Notes under the pieces: model-generated | Databases searched by the model: none | What the model saw: only the letters and a program-made list of their open reading frames with translations | Told to the model about the DNA's origin: nothing | Part shown: positions 34,208 to 48,206 of the stretch, in pieces | How the letters are laid out: the number at the start of each line of letters is the position of its first letter | Position numbering within the stretch: position 1 is the first letter of the stretch | Program-made: the position numbers and the translations under genes | NCBI GenBank assembly: GCA_951406725.2 | Contig: OX597819.1 | Span: 104,904,001 to 104,968,000, forward strand | Direction of reading: 5' to 3' | Length of the DNA stretch: 64,000 nt | Origin: Octopus vulgaris | Taxonomy: Eukaryota

Positions 34208-36506
34208 GACACACACGTACGAGTGTGTGTGTGCGTGTGTGTATGTACGTATGTAGGTATATGTCTATCTCTATATGTGTGTGTCTTTATATTTTTGTTC
34301 CCCATCACTGCTTGATAACCAATGTTGGTTTGTTTACATTCCCATGACTTAGTGGTTTGGCAAAAAGATACCAACAGAATAAGTAGCAAACTTTAAAAAA
34401 AAGTACTTTCAAGATGAGGCCTCTACTTGGCTGCAGTTAAATGACTGAAACAAGATAAAAGATAGATAGATACATACATACATACTTATATACATGAGTA
34501 CTTGCAGCACATACATATACACATATATACATAGGAGAATCTGGATGAACTGGGATTTTCAGAAAGAGAAACTGACCGGCTGATTCATACATTACAAGTA
34601 CAATCTGTGAGTGGAACAGTAAAAATATGCAAGACTTTTCTCAAGTTCCAAATGTGAATTTGTCTGTGTTAACTACATCCCAAACATGGAGCCTTGTATC
34701 TTTGTTGGAAGCCGGCTACCTCCTCAGTGGTAGATTTATAATGATTAAAAAATAGAAGAGACATACATATGTTCATACATACATGCATACATTCACACAC
34801 ACACATATACATACACACACACATATGTACATACATGCATACAGAACATTGGATCTCAGAAGCCAGCTCTTTCTCTATTGGCAAGAAATATTGAAATAAA
34901 ACACTGAATCATGACATACATATGTGCATGCATACATTCATACATGGTGGCTGCCCCCTTGTTATCGAGTATGGCCATTGCACGAAGCTTAATTAATGCT
35001 GTTATCGTGCAATGCCTGTGCAAAAGGATTTTTTTTAACTGAATAAAGGCTGTGCATTGAGTCAATCCCACTCACTAAGCAACAGCAGCCATAATCCGAA
35101 AAGAAGAACAAGTCAACATCATCGGTAACCACTGAGCCGCAGGTTTTATGTCGGAGTTATCCCAGTTACCTGAGTTATTTCTCGTAGAAGGATGCCCTAA
35201 CAAAGGCTAGTAGACCTTCACTCCCAATGGTTTAACCGTGCAATCGGGTATTCAGTCCAATTATTTCTATGTCCCCGCACATGATACAGCCTTAAAACAT
35301 TTATTGGATTGCCGTTGACTCTCAAGAGTTCCTCCGCCCCCTTGACAGGTTTTGTTTTTCATCCCGCAGGGTGTCCAATAAACACCCTCCTCACCAAGCA
35401 AGCTTGGTGGGATTGCCGGTTTAGTCGCCGACGACCCGACCATGCAACAGGTTGTACTGGGTTACATGTTACCAGTAGCATTCGAAAGTGACCTGACCAT
35501 ACATTAACACATACATACTTACATACATGCATAGATACAAGATGATCATAACTAAAACGTTGATCAATGACTGAATTTTCCCATTCATTTATCTTTGGTC
35601 AATTGCAAAGTAATGGTGGATTCCTGACCCTTCCAAGTCATTATTTTAATTTAGGTTAAATCTCAGAAATAGTAAAAAAGAATATTTTCTTATGCTAGAA
35701 TATTTAATTCGTGCAAGTGAGAGGTATCAGCTGGTCATCATACAAAACACAACCTTAATGATTGTGTTTTGTATAATACAGCAGACCAGTGCAGGTATGG
35801 CTGTGGTTAAGAAGTTCAGAATGTAACCATGTGGTTTTGGGTTCAACCCCACTGAGTAACGTCTTAGCTAAGTGTCTTTTACCATAGTTCAAGTAGCTAC
35901 TTTTGCATGAGCAGAACATGACTGCTAGTAATGCAACGCTACTATCATTCCAGATAAGCCCATTTGAACTCGTGCAAATACTAGACTTAGTAGTCAAATA
36001 TCCTTCAAATCATACTCTACTGAGTTTTAAAATAAGCTCAGAATAATGTATTTGTAGATACAGTATGTCTGAAAAAGGAAAGCAAAAAAAAATGGACAAT
36101 GCTAATGGCTTCGTCACCTAAGCTGATCAAGGTTGACATGAGGCTAGAAAACAATATGATATATCTATATTTTTAATGATATCCTATTGTTTTAGACAGA
36201 AGGAACGTTCAGGGATATCATGAATGGGGAAAAAAGGACAAGAAAATAGACATAATCGTATTGTTTTCAGGAAAAAAAGAAAGTAAATGCTAAAAATTTA
36301 AATGCAAAAGTTCCATTGTAAATTAGCTATAGAAATACAAGTTAACTAGTAAATGGAATTGTTAACCGAGATTTATAGAACTAAAAATCACACCACGTTT
36401 AATTGTTAAGTGGATGTAAAATGAACGAGTCAAGTTTCAGCTTTGTTCAATTATAGTTATGATAACAAATAGCAAAATAGAGTCTCGCAACAAGTCATAT
36501 GTCTAA

Positions 36507-36550
36507 GTCACGTGACTCAACCCGGAAGTTGTTGGTTAATAAAATGGCGG
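36507..36550 (+). promoter_or_regulatory. UBE2Z proximal promoter motifs
   Basis: GTCACGTGAC (36507-36516), CCGGAAGT (36522-36529) and AAAATGGCGG (36541-36550; YY1-like, overlapping the start codon). Confidence 0.65.
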
Positions 36551-36692
36551 TTGCTAGCTCTGATGACTCTTCCAACTTTTTTGTGGCCGAAGACATGCTC
36601 GCACACTCCAACAGTTCGAACTGGGACCCCTGTCACAGCAAAGATTGGGATAAAGAGAAACCAACGCCCCAGTGTATTCTTCGGATAAAAAG
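36544..36692 (+). CDS. UBE2Z: Ubiquitin-conjugating enzyme E2 Z, exon 1
   Basis: aaaATGGCG start; MAVASSDD...WDPCHSKDWDKEKPTPQCILRIKR; donor AG|gtacga (phase 2). Confidence 0.88.
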
Positions 36693-37103
36693 GTACGACA
36701 TACTTTTCGTCTTATTCCAGTCCCTCCTGTCTTCCTCTCTCTCCCTAGACTCTCTTCCTTACTTTCGTTTTTACTGTTTATTTATATTTACCGAAAAAAG
36801 ACGAAAGAATTGCGTCTAGCTTTTTTAAAGTATCAGATGATATGCCGTCTTAGTTGGATAATTGTTAAGTTTCCATCATCTCAAATTTATATAAATGTTA
36901 CTAACCATTTGAGAACAGATTAACTAAATGGGGGAATATTGTTAAAATGAAATAATTTTTACAGTAATTGTTGATTTAGTTATAAAGAGGAATACTTTTT
37001 TTTTTATTACTTGCGTAGGTCAAACATATCTCACACACACGCATACATATTATTTTATATATTACAGTTATAATTTGTATAAATATAATTTGCATGTGTA
37101 ATA

Positions 37104-37147
<44 letters not shown>

Positions 37148-37150
37148 GTG

Positions 37151-37189
<39 letters not shown>

Positions 37190-39379
37190 TTACTTGAAGT
37201 TGGCGATTTGTATACAGCCATTCAAATTTAAGAAATTAGCTTAAAATGTGCAATCTTCTATTCAGCTAAAATGTCATTTTTTTCTTTTTTCCTTACGTCA
37301 CGCATACACACACACACTGTGTCGCAGTGTATTTATATGGTCTATTATTTACTCAGCATTTCTACTTAGTTGTTCTCACCTGTCAACAAAGAGTACTTGT
37401 TATTGTTGCTAACCTAGTTTTTGTTTGTCTTCGCTACTCGAAACTAATTATCACGTACGCAAACGCACGCATGTGCGTGCATGGGTGTTTGTCTGTGTGT
37501 ATGTACGCATACAATAAGTATAAATATATAATTTACAAGTGCTATCACGAACCACATTAAGAGTATTCAATGTATATCGTAAAGTGAAAATTTTATTGTA
37601 GCATAATATTATTTTATGGCGAACTTCTAGAATAGCCGTTCTTTGTAGTCCCATACTTCGTGGAAATGAAAAGTGCTAACGAAAGTGGTGGGGAGGAAGA
37701 TAATATTGGAATTTTGGGGAAAAAATTGTTCAGGATGGTAAATTTCAGTTGTATAAAACAAATAATTGAAATAATTCTTTCTACCACAGGCACTAGGCCT
37801 GAAATTTGGGGGAGGGATTAGTCGATTATATCGATCCCAGTGCTCGAGTGATATTTATTTTATCGACCCTAGAAGGATGAACGGCAAAATCAACCTCAGC
37901 GGAACTTGGTTTGGGATCGTAAAAACGTACGAAATGCTGCAAAGCACTTTGGCGTGTCATCGATTCAGCCAGCTCGCTGCCTTAACAATAATAATCCTTT
38001 CAACTATACACACACACAAGGCCTGAAATTTTGGAGGAGGAGGCTAGTCGATTACATCGACCCCAATGCGTAACTGGGACTTATTTCATCGACTCGAAAG
38101 TATGAAAGGCAAGGTCGAGCTCGGACCGTATAGACGGACGAAATGTCGCTAAGCATTTTGCCTGGCATGCTAACGATTCTACCAGCTCATCGCCTTAACA
38201 ATAATAATAATAATAATAATTTTTTCTAATTTTGACACAAGGCCAACGATTTTGAGAAGAGGGGGAAATCAACTGTCTCCAGTACTTGACCCTGTACTTT
38301 ATTTACCGACCTCGGAAGGATGAAGTGCAGAGTTGACCTCAACTATATTTGAACTCAAAAAGGGGAAACTTTTTTCCGTTTCCATGAGACTCGGGGGGGG
38401 GGGGGACGGCTAGTCCAAACCTGCGCCAATTTTACTTATAATATACGCTTCGAAATAGATAATTCTGGAATGCAAGCAGGGTCCTTTTCGGGACTTCGTA
38501 GAATGTGAGGAAATTATTTTCTGACAGGAAACATGGTTGTTCAAAAGATTACAACGAATGGCCTCCACCGATGACACCCAGGGGTCAAGTAATGGTATTA
38601 AACTAGAAGACGATTGTCTGTATATTTGTGTATGAGTGTGTGTATGTATTTGTCTTGATTCACTCTTTTTCTGATAATAAATGTCTTATCACTTTGGAAA
38701 CACGCAGACAAGACATTGTAAAATGTTGTTTTGGGCTTGACGTTTTTTTTTTTTTTGTCTTGCTTAAATATAAATAAATAAATTGCGTCAACCATGAATG
38801 TCCGTTTTCGTAGTGGTCGAGATCTTTTCGAAACAGCTGCCAAATCTCAAATCACATCGCCCTCTCTTTAGAGTAGACAACTTGTTTAAATTTAAACAGG
38901 ATTTCAAAACAAATTACTTGCCAAACAAGTACCACTCAAAAATGTGTGTGTGTGTTCGGCAATAAGCACAAAAAAACAAAACAGAAGAGGGAATGCTTAT
39001 GTACATAATGCGAATGTGTTATAGATAATAGAAAATTAACTGAATGGCATACTTTATTCAAAATCACTACAGTTGTTTCCACACATTGTTACACCTGTAG
39101 TGCAGTGTAATCATTATCATCCATCAAAGGTGTAAGATGGGTTTCTTCTGTTGATTATTTTAAACAAGTCTTTTGTTAGCTCATACTGTCGTTTCACTCT
39201 GTAAGAGAATGAATACCCAAAGTAGTGTGCTATTTCCTGGAATTTGCAGACAAAACTAAACCCACAGATATTAGTAACAGACAAACACAAGTATCATCAA
39301 ATTACAGAATCAAGAAACAGATACAGGTATAATGATGTGTAGAAACAATTGTGATTTTGAATAAAGATTGTCGTTGAAT

Positions 39380-39812
39380 CTAATCAAAATCGATCAACAT
39401 GAATGGAAATTGTAGCTGTGATACCAGTGCCAGTGGCACATAAGAGAACCATCCGAATGTGGCCGTTGCCAGCGCCGCCCCGACTGGCTTCCGTGCCGGT
39501 GGCACGTAAAAAGCACCATCCGATCGTGGCCGTTGCCAGTCTTGCCTGGCCGATTGCCAGCCTCGCCTGGCCTCCGTGCCGGTGGCACGTAAAAAATCAC
39601 CATCCGATCGTGGCCGTTTGCCAGCCTTGACTGGCACGTAAAAAGCACCCACTACACTCATGTAGTGGTTGGCGTTAGGAAGGGCATCCAGCTGTAGAAA
39701 CATTACCAGATCAGACTGGGCCTGGTGCAGCCTTCTGGCTTCCCAGACCCCAGTTGCACTGTCCAACCCATGCCAGCATGGAAAGTGGACGCTAAACGAT
39801 GATGATGATGAT
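39380..39812 (+). mobile_element. (GAT)n-tailed retroposon/SINE in UBE2Z intron 1
   Basis: Same family as 18598-19023; explains the ORFs at 39380-39928. Confidence 0.75.
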
Positions 39813-42800
39813 ACTATGGAATTCCTGATGTATATATCCAGTAGCAGAAGCATTTGCACTGTATGATGAGATTTGGTAGCCAATAACTGGACAAGCTTTG
39901 CATAGCATTCTACAAGGTTTTTACCCAAATCTTATTTAACTCATGAATGACCATGGAATTGCGCCTAGAAAGTTACCCTCCGAGGCACATGTCCAGGCAA
40001 GGTTGTTTATGGAAGACCAGCAGTTGCCCATGCATACCAGCCTCCCCTCTCCATGCCACTGATATTATCCTAAGGAAAGACAAAGGTCAATACAGCTTGA
40101 CACTAGTGTTGTCACAACTCATTTCTACAGATGAGGGAACTGGAGCAATGTGAAATAAAGTTCCTTGCTTTATACTTCCACTGCCTGGAAGTATAAAAAC
40201 TATGAACATAGTGGAAGAAAAGACGTACTAGAAGTGAAACTTATATAATTATGGTTTTATATATCATCATTTTAAAGTTCTTTTCCATCCTTGCATGGGT
40301 CAGCTGAAGTTTATTGAGGTAGATTTTCTACATCTGGATGACCTTTCTGTGACCAACCCTTACCTGTTTCAAAGCAAGGTAATATTTCCTCAAGGCCAGA
40401 CATGTTTATGCTGAATAGTGTAAATGAATGATACTGCCTGTATGGCAGTGACGCTCATTTACAACTATCACATGACGTCAAGACAAGAGAACACAAGCAT
40501 ACACTCTCTCTCTTCTCTCTCTCCCTCTCACATATATACACACACACACCACATATATGTCAGGCTTTTCTCAGTTTCTGTCAACCAAATCCACTCACAA
40601 GGTTTTGGTCACTTGGTTTTATAGAAGACACTTGCCTAAGGTGCCAGTTAGTCAGATTGAACCTAAAACCACATGGTAGGGAAACAAACTTCTTAATCAC
40701 ACAAATGAATGTATTATTTTACTACTTCCGTCTTTCTCTCGAATCATAACAATGCATGAGAGGGGAGAGATTGATCTCTGGTATCCTTTATTTGCATTCT
40801 TCCATTACATGCTCCCAAGGATACATTCTGTCCCCACATCATTTTATTTCTCCTCCACACCCCTGTACCCACCCATATAACATGGTTTAGCACTGCCTCT
40901 CTGCATCACCACCCTTACCACTGACACTTTTTATTTCCTTCCTATAACTTAATTGCCCTTATCTTACTCAACTCTCCCCATTGTCCCATCACTCTCTAAC
41001 CCTCTCTCTACTCCTCACCCCAACACTACTTTTCATTTTCCCTCTTATTAGTCCTTCCCTAACACTGTCTCTACCCTTACTCAACAATGAACCTGTGTAA
41101 CTCCAATAAGAAATGTTTCAGATCTTGACAAACTGTCCAACCCTGCTGTCATGGTAGATAGACTGGTTTACCCCATTTCTGGGTCCACCTCTTCAACTTA
41201 CCCTATTATCATTACTACTCCTAACATTACTCTTCCTCTTCTCCCACTCCAACACTGACTCCTCTGTTACTCTCCCCATACCACCTTCTCAGAATAAATT
41301 TATCCCTTCCATCAAGGTGTAGTATTCTTTTGCTTTACAAGCTGCAAGGTGACCTCAACTGTGCAAGTGACACAAAAAGCATCCAGCAGACTTTCTAAGA
41401 GATTAGTAATCAATTTGAGCAATGACTATTCATGGCTTGAGAGAGCTCGTTAATGTTGTTGATGGCAAGGCAACCCCTATAGTGCTGGTGTTATGATTGA
41501 TGCAGCCAGTACACTCAATAAAGTGGTTGATGTTGGAAAGGGCATTCAGTCATGGAAACCATGCCAAGATTAAGGTGTGGCCCTGTGACTCATTTGAATC
41601 CTGTTGAACCATCCTACCAGCATGGAAAACAGACATAAAAAGGATGATGATGTGTAGCCCTAAATATTTAATGTAGCAATTAAAGTAATTCACATTACCA
41701 CATAAACCATATATAACTGAAATTGAATTCTTTTGTGCATTTCACTTCTACTTATTGATTTTATTTGATTATTTATGTCTTTTTATGTTCTGAATTTAAA
41801 GCTTGCCAAATCAGCTTTGCTTTTTGTCCTCTAACTTGCTTTAGAAATGAGATGTTTACAGACATTGCTGTTTGGTTAAGAAGCTTGCTTTTGCAGCCAT
41901 GCGGTCTCAGGTTCATTCCACAATATGGCATCTTATGCAAGTGTTTTCTACAATAGATCCAGCTGGCTAATGCATTGTGGATTTGGAAAATGGAAACTGT
42001 GTGGAAACCTATCATATGTATGTGTGTGCCTCTGTCTCCACCCGTAATCGACTGATAGACTGGTGTTGGTTTGTTAACACCCTTGTAACTTTGCGGTTCA
42101 GTAAAAATGACCATAAGAAAAAGTACCAGGGTCGATTTGATCAACTAAAACCCTTCTAGGTGGTGCCCTAGTATGGCCACAGTCTAATGACCAAAATATG
42201 TAAAGCAATAAATAAAGAGAAAATACTGTGTTTGTATGTTTGCGTGTGTGTTATACTGAACTGTTGGTTGTTTATCAAGCCCATATCAATTCTGATTGCA
42301 CTGACCAAAGATACTCCAGCTGGTCTTTTTTAAGGCCATATCTGGGACTACAATATCTACTATGTCATGTAACTCTCCTCTTTTCCTTTTCAAGACAGTA
42401 AAATTTGGTTTTAAAGAGGTGGACCCTGCTATTTCTAACAAGTTGAGTGACTGCATGCATGTTACATATGTTTGAACAAACATATTGATGTGGAAAGCGA
42501 AAAATGGGTTTTTATTTTTAATATATTTAATGGTGAACTACTATGACCACCATCGACACCACCACTACTACCATCACTACTTTTAAATCCTCACTTTGTT
42601 TACATGTTTTGCTACAAAGACTTCCATCTTCTCACCACCTTTCTTTTCTGTTTTTTTTTTTCCTATCTCCCCTCTCCTTTCTCACTTTCTTCCCATCCCA
42701 TACTTCTCATTATTGAATATGTCATCGTTTAATTTATTATGATCAATAATTGTGTGTGTATACGTGTGACAAGCAGTTGCCGTGTCGACTGTGTGGCCAA

Positions 42801-44963
42801 GCTGTCTGTTAACCAATTTCCTTGACCCGGTTTCATGAGAATCACTTCAGCTTATGATGTTAAATAATCTTTGAGACAGACACGAAAACCATATCTTATT
42901 TCCTTAATGTTTTTAAATCTGATCTGACATTTCTTGTCCTCACCCTCTGTCTGTGTATTAAAGATGCACAGTGCTATTTACAAAGGGATTAATGTCAACA
43001 TTCTAATAGGTAGAGAAATAATGGGTAACAGATTGTAGAGAGCTAAAATGGAGAAGGGTCAGGGACAAGGCGAGGTTTCTTTTAAATAATACCAGAATTG
43101 TTTTTGCTTTATGCTTTAAATGAACAGAATAGTAGTATCATTCTTAAGCACATTGGTTCCATTGATGTGATAGTATAAGATAAGTGGTGTACGGAGAGAT
43201 ATTAGTTACATCCACATACCTGCTGAAGCCATGCCACTATTAAAAAATCTTAGTCGTTTGACACACTGTTTCTCTGTCTCTTTATCTCTCGCAATAACAT
43301 ATAACGCTTTTATTCTAGATCTGTATTAATAGCTGAAAAATTTTAAATTGCTGGCGAGTGTCTATTTAAGGAAGTAATTTTTATTACTTCTCCTCCTTCT
43401 ACAAAAGGACAATCATTATAAATGCAGAATTTTCAAAATTATTTTCATATACCTACAGTTACCGAATTACCAACATTTATGTTTGTCTTTTTTTCTTTTT
43501 TTTTAATTTTATACTGATTTTCTTTCATGCCAGAAAGGCTTAGGTTGGTTTTACAAATTTATCAGTTTGCATGAATTATTCAAACAACTGCTTCTTTCTG
43601 TGGCTAATTCACTGCTACTGTGAATTGAGTTGTTTGAAGCAAGAAATGTAAAAAAAGTTTCTAATACAGTCTTTGCTCATATCATCTACATCTGATGCCC
43701 TGCTTCTCTCTCTCGCTCTCTATAATGGCCTCTGCTCCTCAGACTGTCTGAGCTCATTCTGCCTCCACTCAAGGCATTCCTGAACCCGTCATTCCCCTCT
43801 ACTCATCACTCTGTATACCCCACCACCACCACTACAAAGCCACACTCTAATCTTTTCTCCCTTCCCAGAACATTGGTCTTTTTGAATTCTTACCAAGCTC
43901 ATGTTCATCTCACTGGTATTAAGTTACAAAGGTTAAAAAAGAAAATATTAATATCATCTCCTTAGTCTAGGAGGGACTGTCAAGGCAATGTATACTGCTC
44001 CTTCCTCCAGACCCAGCAAAAAGACCAAAAAATATCATTAATCTTGGTTTCTGTTTTTCCCAAGAGAGATTAACCCACTTGGGACTTACCATATTAGAAT
44101 GTTTGCATTTCAACTGAAATTTCATCATTACATGAATACATTCGTCTTTTAGTTGTGTTTCAAGCACCAGCTTAATATAGCCATAAGTAAATAATGGTAT
44201 AGCTGCTTTACGAAAGCAGGCAAATTTTAAAATTAGTTTGACAGTTAATTGAAACTAATTACTTTGATAGTTAATTGAAATACATGTAGTTAGTGTGTTG
44301 TTAAAAATATAGTCTTGGAAGGGTATTCACTTTCATTGTTATCATTTCCTCTATCAATAAATCATCTCTTGGCTTTGTGCCTTTGCAGTCATGTGGAATA
44401 AGTGATCCCTTTGTTGGAAAATAGGTTGGGATTGATGACAGGAAGGGCATCTAGCAGTAAACTACATCTGATGCCCTGAAATTGGCAGTAATAGACTTGT
44501 TTTACCATTTGTTTAGACAAGATTTTAAGAGGAGAGAAATATTTTGACAATGTATTAAAATTCAAAAAATCAGTTGTAACCAATGAAAACTCCTTTTATT
44601 ATACAAGTTAGAAAAATTTTGTAAAGTCTGTAGTAATGTGAGTGGTCGTGACAGTCATGAGAGACATCATTAAGTCAAGGGTTATGGATAAAATTTTGTT
44701 GTGGAAGAAAAATGATTAGCTAATAATGTACATATGTGGGTGTTGGAATGTACAGTGATTGTTTGCATTGAATAAAGGAAGTGCATAATGAGAGAGAAAG
44801 AATTGCAGCAACAGGTTGTGAATTATGGCAGTCAAATTGAATGATTAGTGTTTATAGAATCTAGGGTGCTGGTGTATAAGGAAGGTTTTAACCCAATAAG
44901 TGCAGAGCTTTTCAATAGTTAACCAAAAGTTGGGATAATTGCAACAGATGACATAAAGAATTC

Positions 44964-45111
44964 AATGGCATTCCCTACACTTTCCCAGTATTGAAAGCTG
45001 TAGTTTTATTCCATTATACAGTAACAATTTAATTTCTTCACCTTTGTTCCCAATGGTGACAGTGGAGTCACAGTATCTTCAACAGTTAAAGTTTTGCAGG
45101 TTAATATATAT
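44964..45111 (+). ncRNA. Candidate box H/ACA snoRNA, copy 1 (probably degenerating)
   Basis: Paralog of 46752-46905; hairpin 1 intact; H box ACAGTA at 45018-45023; a small deletion in hairpin 2; terminal box ATA at 45106-45108. Confidence 0.5.
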
Positions 45112-45389
45112 TTCTGACTTGTATCATTTCATTTTATTGACCTCACTTTTTAAAGGTATTATCTAACTCACTCTCTCTAGTCTTGTACAGCTTGCATTTA
45201 AAACTCTTAAAACTTCCACAATGTCTGATCTTTCCTGGTGACCACAACATATATATATATATATATATATCATCATCGTTTAACGTCCACTTTCCATGCT
45301 AGCATGGGTTGGATGGTTCAACTGGGGTCTGGGGAGCCCGAAGGCTGCACCAGGCCAGTCAGATCTGGCAGTGTTTCTACAGCTGGATG

Positions 45390-45448
<59 letters not shown>

Positions 45449-46751
45449 ACCGCGTGTGTACCGTTGGCGATTTTTTTTCCTCTGTCTTCCCTTCTCTGGA
45501 TCTTTCCTTCTCCTAAGTTTCTGACGAAGAGCTCTGCTCAAAATGTTAAACCCTCCTTCCCTTCCTTCCTTCCTGAGCGTCCAATAATACTATATTTGTT
45601 CCACGTCCTTGCGTTGTTGTGTTTTCATGTTTGGATTAACTATATATATATATATAACAGCTAAAACTATCTCTCACTTCATGGCCATGAATACTTTAAC
45701 CCTGATTAATTGCTGGCTACACTCATAGAATACTGTCACTTTGTCTTTCAAGCCTGTACTGCATATCTGAGACACTGCTGCTGCTACTTCTACTACACAC
45801 ACATCCTAGACAGCTGGACCATTACCTTATTGACAAAAGAAAATGCATTTCCCAATACCTTCAGACCTCTGACCCACAAACATACTCTCTTTCCCCTCTT
45901 TGTGTCTTCAGTTGCTATGTCAGTAGCATCTACTTTCTTAAACTTATCAGCAGCTTACCTTTTCCCCAAGGCCTACCAAACAAACATCTCTCTTCCTTTT
46001 TATCACCCATTAATGTTTCAACCCCCAGGCTCCACATTCACCACTTCGCTTGTGTCTCCCACCCTTCCTCAGACTTTCAGTACTCTGGAATGCCCCCTCT
46101 CCATCTATTTTTTTTTTCTTCAGATGTTCAATCTGTGCATTAAGCATATTGGTCTAACCAGTCTTGGATTGCCTTCAAAGGTCAGGAGTAAACCATTTAA
46201 ATCAACATTCATATCAATGAAACAAATACTTTTTCTTCTAGTTTCTGTTTTTTTACCTTAAATTATCAGTTCACTTCTATTGTACCACCACTTCTGAGTG
46301 ACTCTTTATCCATATCTCCCTCCTTTTCAAGTCACCATTGAGTAACCCATGACCTAAGAGTTCATCTCTGCCAATGCCAAAATTCATCAATCCATCTTTG
46401 ACTTTAATCTCTTTGAAAAGGTTTGTTCCATCAAAGTTGACTTGGGGTTAAACAACAATAACCTCTTTGAATTCATTGAAGTCCACCATTATCATCCCAA
46501 CCCTGGTTTTGTTGTGTTTCATTCTTTTTCAGCTCTACTTTGAAGTCTTAGAACCATTAATACTTATAACCACAGACATGGAATACTGCCACTGCTTCTT
46601 CCAAATCCACATTCTTCTTTGCCAAAATCCTCTCTTCACCTTTTACTCCTTATCTATTGTACCATCATTTTAGCTATCACCTCTTTCTATTAATATTCCA
46701 TCCCACCATACCAACATTGTACAACTAATCATTATTTCTGCACTGTTAATT

Positions 46752-46905
46752 CGATGGCGTTCCCTACACTTTCCCAGTATTGAAAGCTGTAGTTTTAGTC
46801 CATCGTACAGTAACAAATTTAACTTCTTCACCTTTAACTGTCCTCAATGGTGACAGTGGGGTCACATTGCCTTCCACAGTTAAAGTTTTGCAGGTTAATA
46901 CATAT
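46752..46905 (+). ncRNA. Candidate intronic box H/ACA snoRNA, copy 2 (intact)
   Basis: Hairpin, H box (ACAGTA 46807-46812), hairpin, ACA (46900-46902); each hairpin has an internal pocket with exactly 14 nt between the upper stem and the box; same strand as the host gene. Confidence 0.72.
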
Positions 46906-47306
46906 GTCTGTTTCAATATGTTTTGACTGAAGAACCTGATTAGCTGGGGGTAACTATTTCTCAGCTAGGCTGACTGGGGTTAGAAATGTGAACTGTCACA
47001 TGTAATCAATAATTAATTTAATATTTGTACTTATTCTTTATTGTTTCTTCTGCTAAACATGAGGGAAATCCTAAAGAAAATACTTTCCCTATGGGTCCTT
47101 ATGGTTCAGAAATAGATTAACGAGCTGTCAACAGTTTCATTCCTAGCCATGGGTTAACTTAACCTGTAAAATACTGGGCTCAATTGTCAATTTTAGAACT
47201 CTTCTGCATCAAGAAAATAAAGCCCTTGATCATCATCAATAAAAATTAATATTTGTGCAGTTTCATATAATAATAATAATGGATTTAATGTGTTTTATCT
47301 TTGCAG

Positions 47307-47379
47307 AGATATTATGACAATATATAATGAACCACCTCCAGGAATGTGTATAGTTCCAGACAAAGAAGATATTACAGAA
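47307..47379 (+). CDS. UBE2Z: UBE2Z exon 2
   Basis: ttgcag|A GAT ATT...ACA GAA|gtaagt; DIMTIYNEPPPGMCIVPDKEDITE (too short for the ORF track). Confidence 0.92.
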
Positions 47380-48018: not shown

Positions 48019-48206
48019 ATTCATGCATTAATTACTGGACCTTTTGATACGCCTTATGAAGGAGGTTTCTTCTACTTTCTAATTCGGTGTCCCCCAGATT
48101 ACCCCATCAGACCTCCACGAGTAAAACTAATGACTACTGGTGATGGTCGAGTCCGTTTTAACCCTAACCTTTACAGAAGTGGCAAGGTGTGTTTAAGTAT
48201 CATAGG
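48019..48206 (+). CDS. UBE2Z: UBE2Z exon 3, containing the catalytic Cys
   Basis: ccacag|ATT...ATA GG|gtaagt; [18 protein letters not shown]...[18 protein letters not shown]. Confidence 0.96.

What the first reader, a model, noticed from the sequence alone, without database searches (positions are those of the whole stretch)
46752..46905. Candidate box H/ACA guide RNA in UBE2Z intron 1
Seen: hairpin 1 CGATGG-[cgttcc]-CTACA-CTTTC-ccagtatt-GAAAG-c-TGTAG-[ttttagt]-CCATCG; hinge with H box ACAGTA (ANANNA); hairpin 2 TTAAC-[ttcttcac]-CTTTAACTGT...CAATG.GTGAC-agtggg-GTCAC-ATTG...ACAGTTAAAG-[ttttgcag]-GTTAA; then ACA plus 3 nt. In both hairpins the upper stem ends exactly 14 nt before its box. Established: this is the defining geometry of H/ACA pseudouridylation guides, which in animals are encoded sense within introns of housekeeping genes. 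Inference: UBE2Z is a snoRNA host here; the target is unknown. CGUUCCC and UUAGU are complementary to the recalled LSU rRNA segment ACUAA-UA-GGGAACG, but the spacing is imperfect, so this may be an orphan or novel guide.
Basis: partly seen in the sequence, partly recalled or inferred. Interest (0 to 1): 0.75.

Follow-up and report, generated by a model that had tools for sequence, protein, structure and literature searches.

The report
Invertebrate SNORA79 guide for U6 pseudouridylation
The first intron of the UBE2Z gene of this invertebrate (likely an octopus) holds a counterpart of the known vertebrate guide RNA SNORA79, predicted to direct chemical modification of the spliceosome's U6 RNA rather than of ribosomal RNA, and one copy of it was likely pasted back into the genome inside a cohesin gene.

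Summary
The H/ACA RNA is real, but it is neither orphan nor an rRNA guide. Window 46752-46905 matches Rfam SNORA79/ACA65 over the full model, above the gathering score (60.5 vs 55 bits). Among 1,848 uridines of this genome's rRNAs and snRNAs, its two pockets score best on U6 U31 (13 Watson-Crick pairs) and U86 (11 pairs plus a U·U), the sites assigned to human ACA65. The host is UBE2Z intron 1; the human host is GTF2A1, and the TFIIA gene here carries no copy. Two more copies exist: a degenerate one in the same intron, and a 98% identical copy in a cohesin SA intron with an A-rich tail starting exactly at ACA+3 and a 15-nt target-site duplication, i.e. a likely retrocopy of the mature RNA. Expression was not seen directly. 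Open twist: the U·U in pocket 2 could shift modification to U85. The scan noted a SNORA79 half-hairpin in a placozoan before (e1-9717247, not checked by me). Verdict: new member of a known family, modest interest.

The parts
46752..46905 (+). Box H/ACA RNA, SNORA79/ACA65 family (main copy); mature 5' end likely at 46750-46752, 3' end likely at 46905
   Evidence: Rfam RF00600 60.5 bits, model 1-143/143; ends inferred from the limits of the retrocopy
46758..46763 (+). Pocket 1, 5' strand; pairs with U6 nt 33-38 (6 Watson-Crick pairs)
46793..46799 (+). Pocket 1, 3' strand; pairs with U6 nt 24-30 (7 Watson-Crick pairs), placing U31 14 nt from the H box
46774..46777 (+). CAB-box-like CCAG at the first four positions of the hairpin-1 loop (candidate Cajal-body signal)
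   Evidence: The AG aligns with the upper-case AG of the Rfam consensus loop; the CAB consensus ugAG is recalled, not from a call
46807..46812 (+). H box (ANANNA)
46826..46831 (+). Pocket 2, 5' strand; pairs with U6 nt 88-93 (6 Watson-Crick pairs)
46886..46891 (+). Pocket 2, 3' strand; U46886 faces U6 U85 (U·U), then 5 Watson-Crick pairs with U6 nt 80-84
46900..46902 (+). ACA box, 14 nt after upper stem 2 and 3 nt before the predicted 3' end
44963..45111 (+). Second, degenerate SNORA79 copy in the same intron (88% identical): ACA changed to AUA, one mismatch in each strand of pocket 1, 4-nt deletion in upper stem 2, one compensatory pair
   Evidence: (40 bits, below the cut-off of 55)
36544..36692 (+). 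UBE2Z first coding exon (ATG to splice donor)
   Evidence: Spliced reads join its end to 47307; sequence and splice site
36693..47306 (+). UBE2Z intron 1 (10.6 kb), host of both window copies; the main copy ends about 400 nt before the 3' splice site
47307..47379 (+). UBE2Z exon 2
   Evidence: 87 and 83 RNA reads in two runs, all on this exon, with loose ends at both splice sites
48019..48206 (+). UBE2Z exon 3
   Evidence: phmmer best hit UBE2Z 5a4p_A, E 2.4e-33; read loose ends from exon 2 continue with its first bases

Best explanation
This is an intron-encoded box H/ACA RNA of the SNORA79/ACA65 family that likely guides pseudouridylation of U6 snRNA, at U31 with its first hairpin and at U86 (or the neighbouring U85) with its second. 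Shown: the structure, the boxes, the family match, the base-pairing with this genome's U6, and the host intron. Inferred from established H/ACA biology: the RNA is trimmed out of the spliced UBE2Z intron 1, binds dyskerin/NOP10/NHP2/GAR1, and holds the target uridine 14 nt from each box. It possibly concentrates in Cajal bodies through a CAB-like loop, as the vertebrate RNA does. Also inferred: the mature RNA was once polyadenylated and retroposed into a cohesin SA intron, giving a second intact-looking copy.
For: (1) Full-length Rfam SNORA79 match above the gathering score; the pocket letters agree with the family consensus while the stems differ but still pair. (2) Scan of 1,848 uridines in one copy each of this genome's 18S, 28S (plus 1.5 kb upstream), U1, U2, U4, U5 and U6. 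Pocket 1: top hit U6 U31, score 13.5 against 9.5 for the next; shuffled guides reached that score in 2 of 300 anywhere and 0 of 300 in U6. Pocket 2: top hit U6 U86, 10.0 against 9.0; shuffles reached it in U6 in 1 of 300. (3) These are the sites tabulated for human ACA65 (PMC7960923; PMC1636440). SNORA79 activity at U6-86 was detected in a yeast assay on a substrate identical to this genome's U6 nt 78-95 (PMC6984369 supplement; U6). (4) The U31 site is intact in 6 of 6 U6 copies fetched, and the U86 pairing in 5 of 6. (5) The copy at G000:C19:3002192-3002345 matches from 46750 to exactly ACA+3, then has a 21-nt A-rich tail and a 15-nt target-site duplication with 1 mismatch (control 6 of 3,000). 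This is the type-1 snoRNA retroposon pattern (PMC1687206 section 6) and is indirect evidence that an RNA with these ends was made.
Against: No direct detection of the RNA or of pseudouridine in this animal's U6. Pocket 2 is weaker: it has a U·U next to the target, a 28S site scores only 1 point lower, and 81 of 300 shuffled guides reach its score somewhere in the set. Changes next to the target uridine strongly reduced activity in vitro in PMC6800473. The Rfam score is only 5.5 bits above the cut-off. Covariation among the three copies is not significant (1 compensatory pair, 150 of 500 shuffles as high). Conservation in related species could not be scored because the difference table was cut. 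The supplement rows I saw show a yeast test for U6-86 only, none for U6-31. Minor-spliceosome snRNAs were not scanned, and I did not check that the 1.5-kb flank contains 5.8S.
Confidence: 0.85

Rival explanations
1. Same RNA, but only pocket 1 works as in vertebrates: pocket 2 has drifted and either makes pseudouridine at U85 instead of U86 or is inactive. (A variant inside the best explanation, not exclusive of it.)
For: U46886 faces U6 U85 without pairing in all 3 copies, whereas the human guide is listed with a 7-nt strand (5+7) and the Rfam consensus has a weakly conserved A there. [quoted passage not shown]
Against: For U85 the first paired guide base is 13 nt from the ACA box, shorter than the usual 14-16 (recalled rule). 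PMC6800473 found that an extra unpaired nucleotide abolished activity in vitro. PMC6049503 also says one flanking pair is dispensable when pairing is extensive, and there are 11 pairs here. U·U can form a weak pair (recalled).
Confidence: 0.35
2. A silent or non-functional relic of SNORA79: the sequence persists, but no working RNP is made today.
For: A decaying sister copy lies in the same intron. The H/ACA unit ends about 400 nt from the 3' splice site of a 10.6-kb intron. No direct detection of the RNA.
Against: Boxes, both 14-nt spacings and 24 Watson-Crick pairs with U6 are intact. The retrocopy differs at only 3 of 156 positions and ends at the mature 3' end, so the RNA was processed recently in evolutionary terms. 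No better copy was found in the genome.
Confidence: 0.08
3. A guide for LSU rRNA, or an orphan/novel guide.
For: Partial complementarity of pocket 1 to the LSU segment exists; pocket 2 has a 28S site scoring 9.0 against 10.0 for U6. Dual snRNA/rRNA guides are described in Drosophila (PMC3884663).
Against: The proposed LSU site has CA, not UA, between the paired arms in 3 of 3 copies, and the best rRNA score for pocket 1 is 9.5 against 13.5 for U6. The RNA matches SNORA79.
Confidence: 0.04
4. A fragment of a transposon or SINE that happens to fold this way.
For: One copy has a tail and a target-site duplication, like a retroposon; the intron is rich in high-copy repeats.
Against: Only 3 copies in 2.8 Gb by three searches, with reversed-pattern controls at 0 (one search is a lower bound); family match and U6 complementarity.
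Confidence: 0.02

Closest known systems
SNORA79 / ACA65 (Rfam RF00600), vertebrate H/ACA guide for U6 Ψ31 and Ψ86; called a scaRNA with CAB boxes in the PMC6984369 supplement
   Same: Full-length covariance-model match above the cut-off; same two U6 targets in the same order (5' pocket U31, 3' pocket U86); intronic; AG in the hairpin-1 loop.
   Different: Host is UBE2Z intron 1, not GTF2A1, and no copy was found in this genome's spliced TFIIA gene. 154 nt against 140 nt in human, with a longer hairpin 2. Pocket 1 pairs 6+7 against 5+6 listed for human. Pocket 2 has U·U at U85 (6+5 against 5+7). Three genomic copies.
Type-1 snoRNA retroposons (snoRTs) of mammals (Weber 2006, PMC1687206)
   Same: The C19 copy has the mature 5' end, ends at ACA+3, carries a 21-nt A-rich tail interrupted by G, T and C and a 15-nt target-site duplication, and lies sense in an intron of a new host gene.
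   Different: Found in an invertebrate. The empty insertion site in a related species was not checked. The mobilising LINE is unknown; retrotransposition-competent LINEs are reported in octopus (PMC9115989, abstract only).
Drosophila pugU6-40 and vertebrate ACA12/HBI-100 (scaRNA guides for U6 Ψ40; PMC3884663)
   Same: H/ACA guides acting on U6; shows that invertebrates use such guides.
   Different: Different U6 site and different family; no Rfam match to these here.

Membership tests
Box H/ACA guide RNA | Hairpin-hinge-hairpin-tail fold with an internal-loop pocket in each hairpin | tested here: met
Box H/ACA guide RNA | H box (ANANNA) in the hinge and ACA 3 nt from the 3' end | tested here: met
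   46807-12 and 46900-02; the retrocopy ends exactly 3 nt after ACA
Box H/ACA guide RNA | Target uridine 14-16 nt from the box with at least 8 guide-target pairs | tested here: met
   14 nt and 13 pairs for U31; 14 nt and 11 pairs for U86; 8-pair minimum from PMC6049503; the 14-16 range is recalled
Box H/ACA guide RNA | Accumulates as a discrete RNA | tested here: inconclusive
   Only mRNA-type runs were available, with no reads anywhere on the 747 intron bases laid; the retrocopy is indirect support
Box H/ACA guide RNA | Binds dyskerin, NOP10, NHP2, GAR1 and produces pseudouridine | not testable with these tools
   Needs immunoprecipitation and modification mapping
SNORA79/ACA65 (RF00600) | Covariance-model score above the family's gathering threshold over the whole model | tested here: met
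   60.5 bits vs 55, positions 1-143 of 143; C19 copy 59.9 bits, degenerate copy 40 bits
SNORA79/ACA65 (RF00600) | 5' pocket complementary to U6 around U31 | tested here: met
   7+6 Watson-Crick pairs, best of 1,848 uridines
SNORA79/ACA65 (RF00600) | 3' pocket complementary to U6 around U86 | tested here: met
   5+6 pairs with a U·U next to the target, best of 1,848 uridines by a margin of 1 point; which uridine is modified stays open
scaRNA (Cajal-body guide) | CAB box in the terminal loops | tested here: inconclusive
   Hairpin-1 loop begins CCAG, AG aligned with the Rfam consensus; hairpin-2 loop AGUGGG has no clear box; consensus recalled
scaRNA (Cajal-body guide) | WDR79 binding and Cajal-body localisation | not testable with these tools
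   Reported for human ACA65 as WDR79 co-precipitation (PMC3884663)
Type-1 snoRNA retroposon (C19 copy) | Mature ends, 5-30 nt A-rich tail, 7-19 nt target-site duplication | tested here: met
   L008 1501-1656, tail 1657-1677, duplication 1486-1500 and 1678-1692; control 6 of 3,000
Type-1 snoRNA retroposon (C19 copy) | Empty site with a single target copy in a related genome | not tested
   CA in 3 of 3 LSU copies fetched, of 4 found

The most novel reading that the evidence does not exclude
A single A-to-U change in the 3' pocket has moved this lineage's U6 modification from the vertebrate Ψ86 to Ψ85, a natural case of the '5'-most unpaired uridine' rule shifting a spliceosomal modification, carried by a guide that also moves between host genes by retroposition outside vertebrates.
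Probability: 0.2. Interest if true: 0.55.

Novelty: new member of a known kind. Interest (0 to 1): 0.3.

Why it matters
It extends a U6 guide described from vertebrates to an invertebrate, with both pockets aimed at the same two U6 sites. That suggests the Ψ31/Ψ86 guide pairing is old, and predicts these modifications in a group where the searches I ran found no mapping. It adds a host-gene switch (GTF2A1 in human, UBE2Z here) and a clean, young type-1 snoRNA retrocopy in an invertebrate; one search for such retrocopies in invertebrates returned no paper. The U·U in pocket 2 offers a cheap natural test of target-selection rules on which two yeast studies disagree. None of this is a new kind of system, and a routine Rfam scan flags the locus.

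Tried and rejected
LSU rRNA target: rejected. High-copy repeat: rejected. Whole-genome search with RF00600 returned 0 matches but scored only 42 of about 427,722 candidates and missed the window's own copy, so it says nothing on copy number. Expression: no RNA holder listed. Two raw RNA runs of a related species (about 6% of each read) gave 87 and 83 reads, all on exon 2 and none anywhere on the intron bases laid; such libraries do not report on a 154-nt RNA. One low-depth contig of a guessed RNA run covers 46677-46829 and runs 75 nt past the 5' end, so it is pre-mRNA or DNA, not the mature RNA. Conservation in three related organisms: DNA contigs cover the locus, but 117 difference rows were not shown and contigs break at the multicopy RNA, so no substitution count was possible. 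One 196-nt contig of organism D covers 46758-46903 with 3 differences and 50 letters of other flank; it may be a second copy, unverified. Fold energy as a discriminator within the intron: not distinctive. Covariation among three copies: not significant. In one search my slice of the degenerate copy was 2 nt short, so its printed box distance (12) is an artefact; the sequence shows AUA at 45106-08, 14 nt after the stem. No other snoRNA family reached a credible score in window 34000-57000, in 20 kb around the C19 copy, or in 60 kb around the TFIIA gene; the other hits are below cut-off and look like simple-repeat matches. Schattner 2006, the original ACA65 paper, is not held; it is cited only through other papers. 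Look-up of earlier scan notes by sequence found nothing.

Full report
Observation. It folds better than 200 of 200 dinucleotide shuffles (z -3.84). Fold energy alone does not single it out within the intron, since at least 8 of 226 windows of equal length ending in ACA+3 fold more stably. The decisive result is the Rfam scan: the only match at gathering score in the 64-kb window is SNORA79 (RF00600) at exactly these coordinates, 60.5 bits against a cut-off of 55, E 9.5e-08, whole model covered.

Host. Exon 48019-48204 translates to a peptide whose best solved-structure match is UBE2Z (E 2.4e-33; next family BIRC6 3.9e-19). RNA reads from two raw runs and contigs from two further runs join exon 47307-47379 upstream to a sequence found once in the window at 36667-36689, in an exon that starts with an ATG at 36544. 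The RNA thus lies sense in the first coding intron (36693-47306), about 400 nt before the 3' splice site. The genome is 2.8 Gb in 227 contigs. Earlier scan notes call the animal an octopus; I did not test this.

Target. I fetched this genome's U6, 28S, 18S, U1, U2, U4 and U5 and scored both pockets against all 1,848 uridines of one copy of each, plus 1.5 kb upstream of 28S. Pocket 1 ranks U6 U31 first, with 7+6 Watson-Crick pairs that fill the pocket exactly (score 13.5, next 9.5); shuffled guides reach that score in 2 of 300 trials anywhere and 0 of 300 in U6. Pocket 2 ranks U6 U86 first (10.0, next 9.0 in 28S). This pocket alone is weak evidence, since 81 of 300 shuffles do as well somewhere, though only 1 of 300 in U6. 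That both pockets pick the same 107-nt RNA, at the two positions tabulated for human ACA65 (PMC7960923 table passage; PMC1636440 table passage), is the strong point. The U31 site is intact in 6 of 6 U6 copies fetched (of 48 scored) and the U86 pairing in 5 of 6. The supplement of PMC6984369 lists SNORA79 as active on U6-86 in yeast, on a substrate identical to this U6 at nt 78-95, and calls it a scaRNA with CAB boxes (rows seen; the main text does not name it). PMC3884663 reports that human ACA65 co-precipitates with WDR79 (passage). Minor-spliceosome snRNAs were not scanned.

Pocket 2. U46886 faces U6 U85 and cannot form a standard pair; all three copies share this. Human is listed with 5+7 pairs, and the Rfam consensus has a weakly conserved A there. 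PMC6049503 (abstract, section 7 and discussion) found that when the base 5' of the target is an unpaired U, modification shifts to the 5'-most uridine, but also that one flanking pair is dispensable when pairing is extensive. PMC6800473 (passages) found that changes next to the target strongly cut activity in vitro. So Ψ86, Ψ85 or a weak pocket are all possible. For U85 the first paired base is 13 nt from ACA, which argues somewhat against the shift.

Other copies. A DNA search and two 23-nt pattern searches each found the same three places, with reversed-pattern controls at 0. The second copy, window 44963-45111, lies 1.8 kb upstream in the same intron, 88% identical, 40 bits. It has AUA for ACA, one mismatch in each strand of pocket 1 and a 4-nt deletion in upper stem 2. 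Its flanks barely align with those of the main copy and it has one compensatory pair (not significant), so it was probably kept for a time and is now decaying. The third copy, G000:C19:3002192-3002345, differs at 3 of 156 positions, none in a pocket or box, and scores 59.9 bits. Identity starts at 46750, stops exactly at ACA+3 and is followed by a 21-nt A-rich tail; a 15-nt repeat with one mismatch brackets the insert, a length reached in 6 of 3,000 random placements, against 9 and 6 nt for the two UBE2Z copies. It lies sense, about 900 nt after an exon of a gene whose neighbouring exon matches cohesin SA-1/SA-2 (E 2.3e-35); the downstream exon about 8 kb on was recognised as SA from recall only. 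These are the hallmarks of a type-1 snoRNA retroposon (PMC1687206, passages and section 6), and they are the best available, indirect, evidence that the RNA is made with the predicted ends.

Host switch. Human SNORA79 is listed in GTF2A1. This genome has an intronless TFIIA-like ORF and a spliced TFIIA gene. The spliced gene's first and last matched exons span about 20 kb inside the 60 kb I fetched, and neither Rfam at E up to 0.5 nor blastn found a SNORA79 copy there. Host changes are ordinary for snoRNAs; a chicken U6-86 guide listed as an ACA65 homolog is placed in yet another gene (PMC2653536 table passage).

Expression and conservation. Neither could be settled with the runs available; details are under Tried and rejected.

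Literature on novelty. Searches for SNORA79 or ACA65 with U6 or pseudouridylation listed 4, 7 and 9 papers, none on molluscs by title or abstract start. A search for U6 pseudouridine guides with 'invertebrate' listed 2. Octopus plus snoRNA plus cephalopod listed 14, none about snoRNAs by title. The giant squid genome paper counts 41 H/ACA loci from Rfam but names no SNORA79 in its text or its 10 held supplementary files. UBE2Z as a snoRNA host gave 1 unrelated paper, and invertebrate snoRNA retrocopies gave 0. The library lacks most subscription papers, and automated genome annotation, which I could not see, would likely already mark this locus.

Verdict. A genuine box H/ACA RNA of the SNORA79/ACA65 family, most likely guiding U6 Ψ31 and Ψ86 (0.85), in a new host intron, with a decaying sister copy and a likely retrocopy. 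New member of a known kind; interest 0.3. The boldest open reading, a shift to Ψ85, has probability about 0.2 and would deserve about 0.55.

Noticed in passing
G000:C19:3002192-3002345 (L008 1503-1656): Intact-looking SNORA79 retrocopy with A-rich tail and 15-nt target-site duplication, sense in a cohesin SA intron; could be a second working gene.
   Followed up: partly
window 44963-45111: Degenerate SNORA79 copy in the same intron. [quoted passage not shown]
   Followed up: partly
G000:C26:36357395-36359227 (L027): Intronless 635-codon TFIIA alpha/beta-like open frame, besides the spliced TFIIA gene on C11; possibly a retrogene.
   Followed up: no
L013 and L010 (G000:C20 rDNA array): 18S match of 2,643 nt and 28S match of 4,890 nt, far longer than the Rfam models (1,831 and 3,401), i.e. 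large expansion segments; 18S copies also lie on C1, C5 and C28.
   Followed up: no
G000:C1:139423726-139428422: Five equally scoring U6 matches in tandem at about 1.1-kb spacing; many other near-full-length U6 matches are dispersed (48 scored).
   Followed up: no
window 36500-36543: TCACGTGA and CCGGAAGT motifs just upstream of the UBE2Z ATG, resembling E-box and ETS sites of housekeeping promoters (motif names recalled).
   Followed up: no
window 45185-45669: Very high-copy repeats between the two snoRNA copies (summed contig depth up to 7 million); a similar element lies about 400 nt upstream of the C19 copy.
   Followed up: no
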